64,000 nucleotides of DNA from Alistipes sp. UBA936. GTDB taxonomy: Bacteria; Bacteroidota; Bacteroidia; Bacteroidales; Rikenellaceae. The notes beneath the pieces were generated by a model. That model was given only the letters and a program-made list of their open reading frames with translations. It made no database searches and was not told the DNA's origin. Each line of letters starts with the position of its first letter. Position 1 is the stretch's first letter. The stretch spans positions 6,350 through 70,349 of the forward strand of contig DBDI01000030.1 in assembly GCA_002293505.1 (NCBI GenBank). The letters run 5' to 3'. The position numbers and the translations under genes were made by a program. This document shows positions 52,609 through 57,700 of this stretch, in pieces.

Positions 52609-53370
52609 TCAGATTTTGATCATTCGGTTTCGCAACGCCCACACCACCAGCGAGGCGGTGTTCCGGCATCCGGTCTTGGCGAGGATGTTCGCGCGGTGTT
52701 TGTCCACTGTTCGGGGCGAGATGAAGAGCCGCTCGGCAATCCGGCCCGTCGAAAGCCCCTCGCAAATCAAGGGCAACACCTCGCGTTCGCGGTCTGAAAG
52801 CGGTTCGGGTCCGGGCCCGAAACCAGCCTCGGACTCCAGTTCGTGATCGGGTTCCGCCTCGCCTCCCCATTCTGCCCCCTTTGCCCCCTCAACGTCGCCC
52901 TCCTCTGCTGCGCCCCCCTCGTTCCGGCCAATCGCCTCCAGCGCGGCCGAGACAACCTCCTCGAAGCGCGAGTCCTTCGCCAGAAAGCCCACCGCTCCCG
53001 CATCCATCATCGCCGTCCGATACTCGTCGTCGCCGTGCATTGTCAGCGCCACTATCCGCAACTCCGGCCAGCGTTCCATCGCCCGCCTCGTCGCTTCTAT
53101 TCCCGACACCGTTCCCGGCATATCTATGTCCATAAATACCAGTCGCTCTCCGCCCCCTTCTTCGCCCCAGCCGTCTGCCTCGCCACCATCCTTCATCAGC
53201 GCCAGAAACTCCTCCCCACTTGCTGCTTCCCCCACAACTTCGAACCGCCCGTCGCTCGCCAGCAGCCTCCTCAACCCGTCGCGAAACAGGCTGTGGTCGT
53301 CCACCAGTACAACCCGTACCGGACCACCGCCCGCCGCACCCGTACCCATACCCCTCACCGGCCCGCTCAT
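52609..53370 (-). CDS. response regulator transcription factor (NarL/LuxR family) with low-complexity inserts
   Basis: Receiver (VVLVDDHSLFRDG...FMDIDMPG) and a LuxR HTH (LSDREREVLPLICEGLSTGRIAERLFISPRTVDKHRANIL). Gly/Glu-rich inserts lie in the receiver and the linker. Confidence 0.85.
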   Translation of the reverse strand: MSGPVRGMGTGAAGGGPVRVVLVDDHSLFRDGLRRLLASDGRFEVVGEAASGEEFLALMKDGGEADGWGEEGGGERLVFMDIDMPGTVSGIEATRRAMERWPELRIVALTMHGDDEYRTAMMDAGAVGFLAKDSRFEEVVSAALEAIGRNEGGAAEEGDVEGAKGAEWGGEAEPDHELESEAGFGPGPEPLSDREREVLPLICEGLSTGRIAERLFISPRTVDKHRANILAKTGCRNTASLVVWALRNRMIKI

Positions 53371-54317: not shown

Positions 54318-54338
54318 AATGGCAAAGGTACAAAAAAA

Positions 54339-54355
54339 GCACCCAAATCGGGTGC
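54339..54355. terminator. rho-independent-type hairpin flanked by A/T runs (rplS terminator)
   Basis: gcaccc-aaatc-gggtgc with aaaaaaa upstream and tttttttt downstream. It is followed on the minus strand by tacctttg (54323-54330), 5 nt from the kinase ATG. Confidence 0.7.
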
Positions 54356-54378
54356 TTTTTTTGTGTAAGCTTTTTTTG

Positions 54379-54756
54379 TCAGGCTTCTTTCTTGGCGCTG
54401 CCCATTCTGCGTTCTTTGATTCGGGCTTTCTTTCCCGTCAGGTTGCGCAGATAGTAGATACGCGCCCTGCGGACTACGCCTCGCTTATTGACTTCGATGG
54501 TGTCGATGTGCGGCGAGTAGAGTGGGAAAATGCGTTCGACCCCCACTCCGTTGGAGACTTTTCGGATGGTGAACATTTTGGTTCTTCCCGAGCCTTTGAT
54601 CTGAATGACCACACCTCGGAAGCTTTGTAGACGTTCCTTGTTTCCCTCGATAATTCGATAGGTTACGGTGATTGTATCTCCGCTTCCGAATTCGGGTACT
54701 TCTTTTTCCGGCCACATTGCATCCTGGGCCACCCTGATGAGTTGTTCTTTGTTCAT
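54379..54756 (-). CDS. rplS: 50S ribosomal protein L19
   Basis: [29 protein letters not shown]...[11 protein letters not shown] is canonical L19. Confidence 0.95.
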
Positions 54757-54881
54757 CTTATTCGCTGTTTTTACTTATTCCACTTACGGGTTCGCCCTTC
54801 GGCCCCCGCCAACGTTACGACTCGAAAAGGTAAGAGGTTGGGGGTGCAAAGGTAAACAAAAAAAAATAACCCAACAAAAAT

Positions 54882-55394
54882 CTACAGGTTTTCACACAAC
54901 TTTTTTATCCAAAAACTCGAATAGGGATAATTAATATAGCCATATTTTGAGTCTGAAAAATCAGGCGTCCTAGTTGGACGCTTGAGGATGGTATTGTTTG
55001 ATATTCGTATCTTCTTAATAATAGGTTTCCCAATCTTTATGCCTATCCTTTGAGCACTCTTAAGGATAAAGTTCATGAATAATTCAGTTGCCTCTAATTG
55101 CCTGCTTACTTGGTTACCACCTGATTTTAGTTCTATGACAAATACGAATGTTTTATCGTTATGGAATACGAACATTACATAGTCACAAATCTTTTTTAGT
55201 CCCTCCTTGTTCTCAAAGAAGGGAAATAAGTCAAGTATTTCGGGATCGAACTTATAAAGACAGTACCGATCTATACCCTTACTGTCTATTTTAAGCGACA
55301 TAATAGGCTTCCTAACTCGCCTATCAACAGCAAGTTCTTCCATTACCGCTTGATTTGTAGCTAAAAATCGTTTATTAATTATGGTGTTTGCCAA
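54882..55394 (-). CDS. small PD-(D/E)xK nuclease-like protein (hypothetical)
   Basis: ICDYVMFVFHNDKTFVFVIELKSGG gives D71...E88-x-K90 on a predicted beta-hairpin. The start is ambiguous: TTG at 55394 (15 nt after the ATPase stop) or ATG at 55343. Confidence 0.5.
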   Translation of the reverse strand: MANTIINKRFLATNQAVMEELAVDRRVRKPIMSLKIDSKGIDRYCLYKFDPEILDLFPFFENKEGLKKICDYVMFVFHNDKTFVFVIELKSGGNQVSRQLEATELFMNFILKSAQRIGIKIGKPIIKKIRISNNTILKRPTRTPDFSDSKYGYINYPYSSFWIKKLCENL

Positions 55395-55409
55395 AGCGTG
55401 TAAACTTTT

Positions 55410-56792
55410 TTATTTATTGTTAGATAATGTAGCGTAGAATAATTTTTCTGTTAGAAAATTTTGATGTTCTATCGCATCGTCAATGGACGGGACATTAAAT
55501 CCCTTATCGCTAACTTCAATATTTTTAACAACCACTTTTCGACCATTTTTATAATAATCAAAGTAGTGAACACCGACATCATCGTTAGATATCAAGGTGC
55601 TGTCTATATATTCATCCGGTAAACTTATTCCTTTATTGTATAGTGACTTAGCCATAATCATATTATTGAACTCTCTCACAATGTAGTCACTATGCGTGCT
55701 AATAAGCAGTCTCAGCCCATTATTAAGTAATTTCCCTAAAATTCGAGCAAGTATAAGTTGATTATCAGGATGTAGATTCATTTCAGGCTCATCAATGATA
55801 AGAAGTTCATTTTTGCTGGTAATATGCTTCAGATTAAAAATTAGACTTGACAGTGTTTTTACAATTGATGCACTCATATGGATTGGTAATTTCCCCCTTT
55901 TTTTAGAAGCCGCTTTATTTGGGTAAAATATCACATCTCCTTCACTACTAACATCTAATTTGCCGTCTAATAATTCTTGCTCGATTTCCGAAGCTAATTC
56001 ATAATAATAACCCTTTTCTTTTTTTATGGTTTCGAGATCATTGGCCACTCGTAAACCATCTCGAATCGCAAGAGGATATCGTTTTGAGCCGTAATTTAAT
56101 AATGTGAATGGATCAAGTTTCTCATTACGAGAAAGCTTCTGCATTTGATCAATCAATGCGTTTCTACTTAATGAGAGCTCTTTGTTAAATGTATATATTG
56201 AATTCCTTTCAACAGGGAATATCTCAGTACCTATAATAGGTGCAAAAGCAGAAACCTTATATATTGCTGAGGGTAATATGACGGATATCATAAACGCTTC
56301 TTCACCGTACACATTATCTTTGTTGGGTATAATTGTTATGTCGTATGATCCCGTTTTTTTTACAATAACAAACTTGTTTTTATTTAATGTTATAGTATCT
56401 TTATATTCTGAAATAAGCAGTTCATTTGAGCAATCACTTTCAGAAGTGAGGAAATTAATGTCAAATCCCTCAAATAATTTTTCAGCTTCCTCGTCAGAAA
56501 TACCGAAAATGGTATCCAGATTATCTTTTATATAGTCTGTCGACATTTTTCTATATCGGAAAACTTCTTGAGGATCGATGGACACGACTAATTCATCATT
56601 CTCTGTAAGTTGCTTCATTTTACTATCATCCATCTGCATCCGTGAAGGATAACTATTGCCACTCAAGGCATATATGACGTAAGCCAAATAGGTTTTTCCG
56701 GTATTATTCGGCCCACAAAAAATAATCAGTTTTTTGCCTAAATCTATTGTTGCCTCGCCGATAGCACCAATGTTGCGAACTTGGATTTTCAT
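55410..56792 (-). CDS. ABC-type AAA family ATPase (AAA_15/AAA_21-like)
   Basis: Walker A GPNNTGKT (residues 27-34), a long helical insert, Walker B LLIIDEPEMNLHP, and D-loop/H-loop LLISTHSDY. Confidence 0.8.
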   Translation of the reverse strand: MKIQVRNIGAIGEATIDLGKKLIIFCGPNNTGKTYLAYVIYALSGNSYPSRMQMDDSKMKQLTENDELVVSIDPQEVFRYRKMSTDYIKDNLDTIFGISDEEAEKLFEGFDINFLTSESDCSNELLISEYKDTITLNKNKFVIVKKTGSYDITIIPNKDNVYGEEAFMISVILPSAIYKVSAFAPIIGTEIFPVERNSIYTFNKELSLSRNALIDQMQKLSRNEKLDPFTLLNYGSKRYPLAIRDGLRVANDLETIKKEKGYYYELASEIEQELLDGKLDVSSEGDVIFYPNKAASKKRGKLPIHMSASIVKTLSSLIFNLKHITSKNELLIIDEPEMNLHPDNQLILARILGKLLNNGLRLLISTHSDYIVREFNNMIMAKSLYNKGISLPDEYIDSTLISNDDVGVHYFDYYKNGRKVVVKNIEVSDKGFNVPSIDDAIEHQNFLTEKLFYATLSNNK

Positions 56793-56826
56793 ATGTTTTC
56801 GCTATTATCTTAATAGATATTAATCG

Positions 56827-56834
56827 CAAATATA
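56827..56834 (-). promoter_or_regulatory. -7 box (tatatttg on the minus strand) for the ATPase cassette
   Basis: caaatata on the plus strand, 34 nt upstream of the ATG at 56792. Confidence 0.4.
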
Positions 56835-56926
56835 GTCAATAACTTTAATTGCTTGAAAATTTCGAACATGAAAATTGTAATGACGTATGTGATTTATTAT
56901 CTTTGGGGCTTGAATAGTGAAAAATT

Positions 56927-57700
56927 ATGGCTGACAGACTGATTTTTTTGACGAACGACGACGGGGTGGGGGCTCGCGGGCTGGAGCGGATGATCCAGAT
57001 GATGCGCCCTTTTGGCCACCTTGTGGTTGTTGCTCCCGAGACTACCCAAAGCGGAATGGCCCACGCGATCACTATGTCCAACCCGTTGTTTCTTCGCGAG
57101 GTTCGTTCGGAGCCCGGTTTGGAGGTCTACGCCTGCTCGGGTACTCCCGTCGATTGCGTCAAAATGGCTCTCGACTACCTTCTGCCCGGCCGTAAACTCG
57201 ATATGATCTGCTCCGGCATCAACCACGGCTCCAACGCCGCCATCAACGTTCTCTACTCCGGTACTATGGGGGCTGCGATCGAGGGTAGCTTCTACGACGT
57301 TCCTTCGATCGGTTTTTCTCTCTGCGACCACTCGCTGGACGCCGACTTCGAGGCTGCGGGCGAGATCGTCCAGCGCATTGCCGGCGCCATACTCGAACAT
57401 AAACCCGCTCTACCTCTCTGCCTCAACGTCAACATTCCGGTCGGTCGGCCCGAGGATCTGGCCGGTATAAAGGTTTGCCGCCAATGCCGTGGTTATTGGA
57501 AGGAGGAGTTTTTCATTCGTAAGAATCCCGCCGGTCGCGACTACTTTTGGCTCACTGGCGACTTTCAGAACCACGAACCCGACGCCACCGACACCGACGA
57601 ATGGGCTCTGGCCCACGGCTTCGTCTCGGTCGTTCCGATCCAGATCGACCTCACCAACCACGCTCAGGTCACTTCCCTTGGGAAGTTCCTGAACCGCTGA
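56927..57700 (+). CDS. surE: 5'/3'-nucleotidase SurE
   Basis: LTNDDGVGARG, SGINHGSN, NVNIP. Confidence 0.9.
   Translation: MADRLIFLTNDDGVGARGLERMIQMMRPFGHLVVVAPETTQSGMAHAITMSNPLFLREVRSEPGLEVYACSGTPVDCVKMALDYLLPGRKLDMICSGINHGSNAAINVLYSGTMGAAIEGSFYDVPSIGFSLCDHSLDADFEAAGEIVQRIAGAILEHKPALPLCLNVNIPVGRPEDLAGIKVCRQCRGYWKEEFFIRKNPAGRDYFWLTGDFQNHEPDATDTDEWALAHGFVSVVPIQIDLTNHAQVTSLGKFLNR

What the first reader, a model, noticed from the sequence alone, without database searches (positions are those of the whole stretch)
54862..56900. AT-rich two-gene cassette: ABC-type ATPase + small PD-(D/E)xK-like protein inserted between rplS and surE (Septu/PARIS-like logic with a different effector)
A segment of about 2 kb with 23-32% G+C (lines at 55441 and 56341) sits between the rplS promoter and the surE promoter; flanks are about 58% (line 57001). 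It carries its own -7 box (minus-strand tatatttg, 56827-56834) and two co-oriented genes separated by 15 nt, or 66 nt if the ATG at 55343 is the start. Gene 1 (460 aa) has Walker A GPNNTGKT, a helical insertion of about 270 aa, Walker B LLIIDEPEMNLHP and LISTHSDY. This is the AAA_15/AAA_21 ABC-ATPase type used as the sensor subunit in Septu (PtuA), PARIS (AriA), Gabija (GajA) and OLD/AbiL systems. Gene 2 (about 153-170 aa) has none of the HNH, Toprim/DUF4435 or helicase signatures of the known partners. Instead it shows CDYVMFVFHNDKTFVFVIELKSGG, a D...E-x-K arrangement on a beta-hairpin that is the hallmark of restriction-endonuclease-like PD-(D/E)xK folds. I cannot place an ATPase plus mini-PD-(D/E)xK pair in a named system. 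Its location and composition argue for horizontal acquisition of a defence or abortive-infection module.
Basis: partly seen in the sequence, partly recalled or inferred. Interest (0 to 1): 0.8.

Follow-up and report, generated by a model that had tools for sequence, protein, structure and literature searches.

The report
PD-T4-4-type phage defence cassette
The AT-rich two-gene insert between rplS and surE is real, but it is a divergent Bacteroidota member of an already named and experimentally validated anti-phage system, PD-T4-4 (an ABC-type ATPase plus a small restriction-enzyme-like nuclease), so it is an ordinary find, not a new kind of system.

Summary
A 2,037-bp segment (about 54861-56897, 33% G+C in a 56% window) carries two co-oriented minus-strand genes: A (460 aa) and B (170 aa from a TTG start). 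About 10 Rikenellaceae/Alistipes relatives have rplS and surE only 100-380 bp apart and no cassette.

A has an ABC-ATPase fold with invariant Walker A, Walker B and H-loop residues. B has an invariant D71...E88-x-K90...Q99 signature.

The claim that the pair fits no named system is wrong. A matches PADLOC PD-T4-4_A over its full length (E=4e-84). B matches PD-T4-4_B (E=1e-10), as do all 80 relatives I tested. B's catalytic core aligns with a near-prototype E. coli PD-T4-4_B. The A-then-B order is kept in 44 of 44 informative metagenomic loci.

PD-T4-4 was validated in E. coli in 2022. Its relative WonAB in V. cholerae acts by abortive infection with translation shut-off.

Most likely mechanism (inferred): an A dimer senses infection and licenses the B nuclease, possibly on RNA.

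Minor points: B is a divergent, unnamed clade; its ancestral ATG is lost here; the cassette has no mobility genes, terminal repeats or terminator.

Verdict: new member of a known kind; low interest.

The parts
54861..56897 (.). Inserted AT-rich cassette (2,037 bp, 33.3% G+C) between the divergent rplS and surE promoters
   Evidence: Homology with the empty site in L006 ends at about 54860 and resumes at about 56898. In L006 only about 6 nt lie between these points. About 10 Rikenellaceae/Alistipes loci have rplS and surE 100-380 bp apart with no A or B.
55410..56792 (-). Gene A: PD-T4-4_A-type ABC ATPase, 460 aa
   Evidence: PADLOC PDLC04033 PD-T4-4_A, E=4.2e-84, residues 1-454 against model positions 1-457 of 460. 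Pfam AAA_15 4.6e-23 and AAA_21 1.9e-10. AF2 model pLDDT 86, pTM 0.85. Foldseek hits to PtuA, Rad50, the Eco8 effector and AriA with E down to 6e-11.
56691..56714 (-). Walker A motif GPNNTGKT (aa 27-34; K33 is the catalytic lysine)
   Evidence: Coordinates. G27, N29, K33 and T34 are invariant in 25 A homologues, including the E. coli and Vibrio phage PD-T4-4_A proteins.
55767..55805 (-). Walker B / D-loop LLIIDEPEMNLHP (aa 330-342)
   Evidence: Coordinates. I333, D334, E335, P336, E337, N339, L340, H341 and P342 are invariant.
55683..55706 (-). H-loop LISTHSDY (aa 363-370)
   Evidence: Coordinates. T366, H367, S368, D369 and Y370 are invariant.
54882..55394 (-). Gene B: divergent PD-T4-4_B-type small nuclease with a predicted PD-(D/E)xK-like core; 170 aa from the TTG start
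   Evidence: PADLOC PD-T4-4_B PDLC04037 E=1.2e-10 and PDLC04035 E=4.5e-8. All 80 relatives tested hit PDLC04037. hhalign against an E. coli PD-T4-4_B gives 92% probability, E=6.5e-7. AF2 model pLDDT 90, pTM 0.88. N-terminal conservation (N14, E20) favours the TTG start over the later ATGs.
55119..55187 (-). Predicted catalytic core of B: C70-D71 ... E88-L-K90 on a beta-hairpin (aa 70-92)
   Evidence: Coordinates. D71, E88 and K90 are invariant in 80 sequences. Strands 72-78 and 81-90 in the model. The core aligns to CD...DQK / CD...DLK in the E. coli B proteins.
55089..55103 (-). RQLEA: invariant Q99 at the start of the helix that follows the hairpin
   Evidence: It aligns with the QLE / QIE of the E. 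coli PD-T4-4_B proteins.
56827..56834 (-). Candidate Bacteroidota -7 promoter box TATATTTG of the cassette, 35 nt upstream of A's ATG
   Evidence: Read directly. Only its position is suggestive; the match is not statistically distinctive inside AT-rich DNA.
55395..55412 (-). A/B junction: A's TAA stop, then five in-frame codons (KSLHA) that still align with the N-terminus of B homologues; the ancestral B ATG is missing
   Evidence: compared with the consensus.
54847..54854 (-). rplS -7 box TACCTTTG, kept just outside the left border
   Evidence: the same sequence is present in L006.
56898..56905 (+). surE -7 box TATCTTTG, kept just outside the right border
   Evidence: the same sequence is present in L006.
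54379..54756 (-). rplS (ribosomal protein L19), downstream of and co-oriented with the cassette
   Evidence: Pfam Ribosomal_L19, 3.1e-45.
56927..57700 (+). surE, divergent from the cassette
   Evidence: Pfam SurE, 8.7e-58.
54328..54366 (.). First terminator-like hairpin on the cassette's transcription path; it lies after rplS
   Evidence: No terminator-like site was found between B's stop codon (54882) and rplS.

Best explanation
The segment is a horizontally acquired two-gene anti-phage cassette of the PD-T4-4 family, from a divergent clade found mainly in Bacteroidota. It is inserted between the divergent rplS and surE promoters of an Alistipes-like (Rikenellaceae) bacterium.

Gene A encodes an OLD/PtuA-like ABC ATPase. 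Gene B, translated from the same transcript, encodes a small nuclease whose core is a minimal restriction-endonuclease-like (PD-(D/E)xK) fold with catalytic residues D71, E88 and K90, plus a conserved Q99.

Shown here:
- family membership of both proteins;
- conservation of the ATPase and nuclease motifs;
- strict A-then-B operon linkage;
- the insertion itself.

Inferred from the validated relatives (E. coli PD-T4-4 and V. cholerae WonAB): A dimerises through its composite ATP sites and forms a complex with B. A phage-derived cue, together with ATP binding or hydrolysis, licenses the B nuclease. B then stops phage production, most likely by abortive infection. The substrate may be RNA (tRNA or rRNA, giving translation shut-off) and not bulk DNA.
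For: PADLOC: A matches PD-T4-4_A at E=4.2e-84 over its full length. B matches PD-T4-4_B at E=1.2e-10. All 80 B relatives tested hit the same B model.

Link to the E. coli system: a near-prototype pair on an E. coli IncX1 plasmid scores 862 bits (A) and 357 bits (B) on the PD-T4-4 models. Its B aligns with the B profile built here over CD...(D/E)xK...QLE (hhalign 92%, E=6.5e-7).

Conservation: invariant residues in A are the Walker A set (G27, N29, K33, T34), E195-R196, D334-E335 and H367. Invariant residues in B are P58, D71, E88, K90 and Q99.

Structure: A's model matches the solved ABC ATPases PtuA, Rad50, the Eco8 effector and AriA, with 182 hits at E<=1e-3. For B, apart from gelsolin/villin-type chance hits, the weak fold hits are almost all PD-(D/E)xK nucleases.

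Operon linkage: 44 of 44 informative metagenomic B loci have A directly upstream on the same strand. The same is true in L002, L032, L033-L037 and L038.

Mobility: the family is carried on an integrase element in Phocaeicola, on E. coli plasmids and in a P2-like Vibrio phage. The cassette is AT-shifted relative to its flanks in 22 of 23 loci.

Literature:
- PD-T4-4 was validated against phage and described as 'ATPase, nuclease'.
- PD-T4-4 forms higher-order complexes, and the purified complex cut none of 11 DNA substrates.
- WonAB needs both genes, the ATPase motifs and the nuclease lysine. It leaves genomic DNA intact and blocks translation.
Against: - B's own match to the PD-T4-4_B model covers only its core (aa 49-115 against model positions 60-128 of 190). 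Clade members score only 32-54 bits. B is therefore a remote relative, and PADLOC's coverage cut-offs might not call it.
- Foldseek gives no statistically significant match for B (best E about 0.05 against PDB and 0.004 against BFVD; TM 0.2-0.33). The PD-(D/E)xK assignment rests on the motif, the topology and homology to PD-T4-4_B.
- B lacks the family's canonical ATG and must start at a TTG or a later ATG, so its expression here is uncertain.
- No phenotype, trigger or substrate is known for this clade.
- The text of Vassallo 2022 held here does not say whether PD-T4-4 acts by abortive infection.
- One 2026 preprint lists the PD-T4-4 effector as HNH. That conflicts with the other sources and with the data here.
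Confidence: 0.82

Rival explanations
1. Same family, different mode of action. The complex is a direct, DNA-targeting, restriction-like nuclease that degrades phage DNA and spares the cell. It is not an abortive-infection system acting on RNA.
For: PD-(D/E)xK enzymes are classically DNases. Vassallo 2022 reports that 7 of 11 systems with nuclease-like components gave direct immunity. Several ATPase-nuclease systems degrade DNA in vitro.
Against: Purified EcPD-T4-4 cut none of the 11 DNA substrates tested. In WonAB, ICP1 DNA replication proceeds, genomic DNA stays intact and translation is blocked. There is no methyltransferase or other self-protection gene in the cassette.
Confidence: 0.22
2. 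The cassette is a decaying or silent relic in this genome. B is poorly translated or not translated because its ancestral ATG is lost, so the locus gives no defence.
For: An AAA codon occupies the position of the family's start codon. The first usable start is a TTG six codons downstream, and gene callers pick an ATG that removes 31 conserved residues. The G+C gap to the host is very large (34% against 57-59%).
Against: Both ORFs are intact over their full length. Every invariant catalytic residue is retained. TTG is a legitimate bacterial start codon, and with it only about six N-terminal residues are lost. Identical copies occur in several independent assemblies.
Confidence: 0.12
3. The pair is mainly a selfish addiction (toxin-antitoxin-like) module, with B as toxin and A as antitoxin. 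It persists by post-segregational killing and not by defence.
For: The two-gene operon is compact, mobile and AT-rich, often has overlapping ORFs, and sits next to a HigB/HTH toxin-antitoxin pair in Phocaeicola. Over-produced WonB is toxic.
Against: In WonAB, B is toxic only when an active A is present, which rules out simple sequestration by an antitoxin. PD-T4-4 and WonAB both protect against phage.
Confidence: 0.06
4. One reading: a previously unnamed defence system that pairs an ABC ATPase with a new mini-nuclease.
For: B has no Pfam, NCBIfam or PHROG family. All of its relatives are annotated 'hypothetical protein'. No PADLOC B model scores above 54 bits on this clade.
Against: Both genes hit the PD-T4-4 models best. 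B's core aligns with E. coli PD-T4-4_B. The architecture, gene sizes and gene order match the named system.
Confidence: 0.03

Closest known systems
PD-T4-4 (Vassallo et al. 2022; E. coli ECOR58, RCO57999.1 + RCO57988.1)
   Same: Two-gene operon with A followed by B. A is an ABC/AAA_15 ATPase of about 460-480 aa. B is a PD-(D/E)xK-type protein of about 170-210 aa. The two ORFs span 1,911 bp here and 1,973 bp in ECOR58. The best PADLOC hits for both genes are the PD-T4-4 models. The ATPase motifs and the CD...(D/E)xK...QLE core are shared. Both are carried on mobile DNA.
   Different: A is only 27-29% identical to the Escherichia plasmid copies. B is alignable by profile only, over about 60-130 residues. 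The host phylum is Bacteroidota. Here the cassette is bare, between housekeeping promoters, whereas the prototype sits in a defence hotspot of an ICE-like element.
WonAB (V. cholerae WASA-1 prophage; Adams et al. 2025, PMC12137116)
   Same: An OLD-type ABC ATPase plus a small variant PD-(D/E)xK nuclease in one operon. The motif residues that are essential in WonAB (Walker A lysine, an arginine, the Walker B glutamate, the H-loop histidine, and the nuclease lysine) have invariant counterparts here: K33, R196, E335, H367 and K90.
   Different: The authors describe differences from PD-T4-4 in the ATPase inserts and C-terminal extension, and sometimes in the nuclease.
'OLD-ABC ATPase + novel REase' operon of the ABC-ATPase survey of Krishnan et al. 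2020 (as cited in PMC12137116)
   Same: [quoted passage not shown] It is reported in 0.96% of bacterial genomes.
   Different: Known to me only through the citing paper. The example sequence (from Anaerovibrio lipolyticus) was not compared here.
Septu (PtuAB) and retron-associated PtuAB
   Same: These are the closest solved structures to A's model (9n69, 8eea, 9e91; E from 6e-11 to 1e-9). They also use an ABC ATPase with a separate nuclease.
   Different: The Septu effector PtuB is an HNH nuclease, and B has no HNH signature. A matches the PtuA models only over the Walker B region (E about 1e-12). TM-scores are only about 0.3-0.36.
PARIS (AriA/AriB), Gabija (GajA) and OLD
   Same: AAA_15/AAA_21 ABC ATPase sensors of the same broad clade (AriA model 7e-26; GajA and Old about 1e-12).
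   Different: Their effector is a Toprim/DUF4435 domain, either separate or fused. It is absent here. These matches are far weaker than the match to PD-T4-4_A.

Membership tests
PD-T4-4 | Component A: an ABC (AAA_15) ATPase that matches the PD-T4-4_A profile over its full length | tested here: met
   PDLC04033 at E=4.2e-84, 281 bits, residues 1-454 against model positions 1-457 of 460. This is far better than AriA (7e-26), PtuA or GajA. For comparison, the Escherichia and Vibrio phage copies score 301-376 bits on the same model.
PD-T4-4 | Component B: a small protein that matches the PD-T4-4_B profile | tested here: met
   PDLC04037 at E=1.2e-10 and PDLC04035 at E=4.5e-8, but only over aa 49-115. 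All 80 clade members tested hit PDLC04037, some across positions 33-172 of 190. hhalign against E. coli B gives 92% probability, E=6.5e-7. Caveat: scores are low (32-54 bits), and PADLOC's own coverage thresholds could not be applied here.
PD-T4-4 | A and B adjacent and co-oriented, with A first | tested here: met
   The gap in the window is 15 nt. The order is kept in 44 of 44 informative metagenomic loci and in L002, L032, L033-L038 and L039-L041.
PD-T4-4 | The effector has a PD-(D/E)xK nuclease fold and active site | tested here: inconclusive
   D71, E88, K90 and Q99 are invariant, and the model shows a beta-hairpin followed by a helix. Apart from gelsolin/villin-type chance hits, the weak Foldseek hits are almost all PD-(D/E)xK nucleases, but none has E<1e-3 and TM is 0.2-0.33. 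A sequence search of the PDB found nothing. The motif evidence is strong; the fold statistics are not.
PD-T4-4 | Confers protection against phage | not testable with these tools
   Shown only for the E. coli prototype and for the related WonAB.
WonAB / 'OLD-ABC ATPase + novel REase' | Sequence homology of both components to WonA/WonB or to the Anaerovibrio pair | not tested
Only the architecture and motifs are parallel.
Septu (PtuAB) | HNH nuclease partner (PtuB) | tested here: not met
   B has no HNH hit in Pfam, NCBIfam or PADLOC.
PARIS (AriAB) / OLD / Gabija | Toprim/DUF4435 effector (separate or fused); GajB helicase for Gabija | tested here: not met
   Neither protein has a Toprim, DUF4435 or helicase hit. 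The cassette holds only two genes.
   Pfam gives no such hit for B at E<=1.

The most novel reading that the evidence does not exclude
The B clade found here is a functionally distinct nuclease subfamily within the PD-T4-4/WonAB radiation, with its own trigger or substrate. It comprises about 1,000 clusters at 50% identity, all unnamed. It has no Pfam family and, for the window's B, no PHROG or NCBIfam match. It scores at most 54 bits on any PADLOC model. In addition, the bare 2-kb cassette spreads by an undescribed route that needs no integrase, transposase, terminal repeats or target duplication. It lands precisely between housekeeping genes or promoters, as seen independently in the window, L002 and L038.
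Probability: 0.1. Interest if true: 0.45.

Novelty: new member of a known kind. Interest (0 to 1): 0.18.

Why it matters
This is mostly housekeeping. It assigns a name (PD-T4-4 family) and a testable mechanism to a gene pair that public sources label 'AAA family ATPase' plus 'hypothetical protein'. The pair is common in gut Bacteroidota; for example, one Phocaeicola A protein is listed in 1,159 blocks of the assembly index.

It also shows that current defence-finder models cover the B component of this clade poorly, so such loci may be under-called.

The mechanism of PD-T4-4-type systems is still open: the trigger and substrate are unknown, and the purified E. coli complex is inactive on DNA. 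A compact, well-conserved Bacteroidota clade could be a useful second model. This locus by itself does not open a new question.

Tried and rejected
- **Fold search for B.** Foldseek against the PDB and BFVD found nothing at E<1e-3, only weak local hits. A profile search of PDB sequences found only chance hits.
- **Viral carriers.** A scan of IMG/VR viral contigs for B relatives found none. The larger alignment A2 was too divergent for pattern design.
- **Empty site in the same species.** Exact look-ups of SurE, RplS and B returned only contigs that carry the cassette. Presence/absence within the species could not be assessed; only other species show the empty site.
- **Insertion mechanism.** There is no target-site duplication and there are no terminal inverted or direct repeats at the borders. 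No mobility gene lies nearby.
- **Defence hotspot idea.** The four relatives with a larger rplS-surE gap were checked in two loci. Those carry outer-membrane beta-barrel or TonB-receptor genes, not defence genes.
- **Prototype sequences.** The Vassallo supplements give accessions but no sequences. I used PD-T4-4 copies from E. coli plasmids as proxies.
- **Sigma-70 promoter scan.** It is uninformative (10 found, 9.5 expected) and not suited to Bacteroidota.
- **Public names.** The exact window proteins carry none.
- **Other families considered and rejected.** Septu, PARIS, Gabija, OLD, RloB and DUF4276 (see the membership table).
- **Assembly chimera.** Rejected because independent assemblies agree.
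Full report
**1. What is in the sequence**

The region holds two co-oriented minus-strand ORFs. A runs from 55410 to 56792 (460 aa, ATG start, TAA stop). B runs from 54882 to 55394 (170 aa from a TTG start, TAG stop). They are 15 nt apart.

G+C falls to 0.30-0.38 across about 54750-56900, against 0.55-0.60 on both sides. The insert is 33.3% G+C and the whole window 55.6%.

The flanking genes are rplS (54379-54756, minus; Pfam L19, 3e-45) and surE (56927-57700, plus; Pfam SurE, 9e-58). The minus-strand TATATTTG at 56827-56834 lies 35 nt upstream of A's ATG.

TAnnTTTG is enriched in the window as a whole (42 matches against 17.5 expected). That fits a Bacteroidota genome. One match inside AT-rich DNA is not significant in itself.

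**2. It is an insertion**

A scan of species-representative genomes with SurE returned Alistipes, Rikenellaceae and Tidjanibacter genomes. The best match is 85% identical.

In about 10 of these loci rplS and surE are divergent neighbours only 100-380 bp apart, with no A or B. Alignment by eye with the closest empty site (L006) shows window homology ending at '...ggtgcaaaggtaaacaaa' (about 54860). It resumes at 'tatctttg' (56898). In L006 only about 6 nt separate these points.

Both housekeeping -7 boxes survive just outside the insert: TACCTTTG at 54847-54854 (minus) and TATCTTTG at 56898-56905 (plus).

- There are no terminal repeats and no target duplication.
- There is no mobility gene nearby.
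- There is no terminator-like site between B's stop codon and rplS. The first such hairpin is at 54328-54366, after rplS.
- Four relatives have larger gaps at this site. The two I checked contain outer-membrane beta-barrel genes, so the site is not a defence hotspot.
- The arrangement recurs in independent assemblies, so it is not a chimera.

**3. What the two genes are**

PADLOC models give the answer directly. A matches PD-T4-4_A (PDLC04033) at E=4.2e-84 over residues 1-454 against model positions 1-457 of 460. The candidate model PDC-M47A comes next (4.5e-66), and AriA, PtuA, GajA and Old are far behind. B matches PD-T4-4_B (PDLC04037 at E=1.2e-10; PDLC04035 at E=4.5e-8).

Pfam sees AAA_15 and AAA_21 in A and nothing significant in B. 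NCBIfam and PHROGs have no family for B.

B's match covers only its core, so I tested its membership further.

- A profile search found 156 relatives. They are about 170 aa long, mostly from Bacteroidota and all unnamed.
- An exhaustive HMMER search found 1,026 clusters at 50% identity.
- In an 80-sequence alignment P58, D71, E88, K90 and Q99 are invariant.
- All 80 members hit PD-T4-4_B. Some match across positions 33-172 of the 190-position model, but at only 32-54 bits.
- Escherichia plasmids and a P2-like Vibrio phage carry A-plus-B pairs that are near-prototype PD-T4-4: A scores up to 862 bits and B up to 357 bits.
- The E. coli B proteins align with the B profile over CD...(D/E)xK...QLE with identical spacing (hhalign 92% probability, E=6.5e-7; and 75%, E=2.6e-5).

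**4. Structure**

B models confidently (pLDDT 90, pTM 0.88). The model has an N-terminal three-stranded sheet, then a beta-hairpin (72-78 and 81-90) that carries D71 and E88-x-K90. A long helix follows, starting near Q99, and then further strands.

Foldseek finds nothing significant for B. Apart from gelsolin/villin-type chance hits, the weak local hits are almost all PD-(D/E)xK enzymes: Nt.BspD6I, McrC, MunI, BamHI, FokI, the R2 endonuclease, bunyavirus cap-snatching endonucleases, XisH, herpesvirus UL24 and VRR-NUC. [quoted passage not shown] I rate the fold test inconclusive on statistics and supportive on motif.

A models at pLDDT 86 and pTM 0.85. It matches solved ABC ATPases with 182 hits at E<=1e-3. 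PtuA of Septu and retrons is on top, followed by Rad50, the retron Eco8 effector, SMC heads and AriA.

From Bacteroidota to the E. coli and Vibrio phage copies, these residues of A are invariant: G27, N29, K33, T34, E195, R196, I333-D334-E335-P336-E337, N339-L340-H341-P342, and T366-H367-S368-D369-Y370.

**5. Linkage and mobility**

Of 49 metagenomic loci encoding a B relative, 44 have an A gene directly upstream on the same strand, usually overlapping B. The other five contigs end within 59 bp upstream of B. That makes 44 of 44 informative loci.

The closest A homologues (55-56% identical) and the widespread Phocaeicola copy are all followed by a B-family gene.

In Phocaeicola the pair sits beside an integrase and a HigB/HTH toxin-antitoxin pair, with varying downstream flanks. 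In L002 and L038 it is a bare cassette between housekeeping genes, as in the window.

The cassette has lower G+C than its flanks in 22 of 23 loci (mean -8.6 points). The window shows the largest contrast.

**6. What is known about the family**

PD-T4-4 was recovered by functional selection from E. coli ECOR58. It was validated and described as 'ATPase, nuclease', and it sits in a defence locus of an ICE-like element. Reviews list it with AAA_15 and PD-(D/E)xK domains.

A 2025 preprint reports that it forms higher-order complexes and that the purified complex cut none of 11 DNA substrates. The authors suggest that it needs a viral cue or has an RNA target.

The related WonAB system of V. cholerae has these reported properties:

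- it needs both genes, the ATPase motifs and the nuclease lysine;
- WonB is toxic only when active WonA is present;
- genomic DNA stays intact and translation stops;
- the outcome is abortive infection without lysis.

One 2026 preprint calls the PD-T4-4 effector HNH. This conflicts with the other sources and with my data.

**7. Mechanism**

Shown here: family membership, intact catalytic motifs, operon linkage and horizontal acquisition.

Inferred by homology: an A dimer with composite ATP sites holds B. A phage cue together with the ATP cycle licenses B. Nuclease action then aborts the infection, possibly by cleaving tRNA or rRNA.

Rivals: direct DNA restriction (0.22), a silent relic (0.12), an addiction module (0.06) and a truly unnamed system (0.03).

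**8. A local oddity**

A and B are in the same reading frame, separated by a single TAA. The five codons after that stop (KSLHA) still align with the N-terminus of the B homologues. An AAA codon sits where the family has its ATG.

B must therefore start at the TTG (55394) or at a later ATG. Gene callers choose the ATG at 55301, giving 139 aa and removing conserved residues. This may lower B expression; I could not test it.

**9. Verdict**

This is a new, divergent member of a known kind. Interest is low.

Noticed in passing
window 55395-55412 (minus strand): A and B share one reading frame, separated by a single TAA. The codons after the stop still align with the N-terminus of B homologues, and an AAA codon replaces the family's ATG. 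B probably starts at the TTG (55394). Gene callers annotate a 139-aa version that is truncated at the N-terminus.
   Followed up: partly
window 54855-54881 and 54328-54366: Only about 21 nt separate B's stop codon from the insert border, and there is no terminator-like site before rplS. Cassette transcripts probably read through into rplS and end at the hairpin after it.
   Followed up: partly
L002:4632-6531 and L038:6001-7951: In two unrelated genomes the same A+B pair is also a bare cassette wedged tightly between housekeeping genes (TerC and mnmA; an aminoacyl-tRNA synthetase and Ham1). No mobility gene appears among the called genes. How such cassettes move is unclear.
   Followed up: partly
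L033-L037:5786-9885: In Phocaeicola the pair lies next to a tyrosine integrase and a HigB/HTH toxin-antitoxin pair. Three different downstream contexts are seen, which suggests a small integrative element that carries stacked defence or addiction modules.
   Followed up: no
L041:1797-5560 (Vibrio phage NC_048066): A P2-like temperate Vibrio phage carries a PD-T4-4-type pair between its repressor and integrase genes.
   Followed up: partly
L010, L011, L017, L030 (rplS-surE gap): Tidjanibacter-like relatives have 1.1-4.5 kb between rplS and surE. In the two loci I scanned (L011, L017) the gap holds outer-membrane beta-barrel or TonB-receptor-like genes. This intergenic site has accepted different cargo in different lineages.
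   Followed up: partly
L007:5876-5905: The empty rplS-surE intergenic region of Alistipes sp. UBA940 contains a short tandem repeat (acgaatt, 4 copies).
   Followed up: no
window 52609-53370 (minus strand): The LuxR-type response regulator two genes beyond rplS has glycine/glutamate-rich low-complexity stretches at its N-terminus, inside the receiver domain and in the linker. The local G+C of 0.64-0.67 is above the window average.
   Followed up: no
literature (10.64898/2026.07.10.737580): A 2026 preprint lists the PD-T4-4 effector as an HNH nuclease. Vassallo 2022, Ragucci 2025 and Adams 2025 describe a PD-(D/E)xK nuclease, which matches the sequences examined here.
   Followed up: yes
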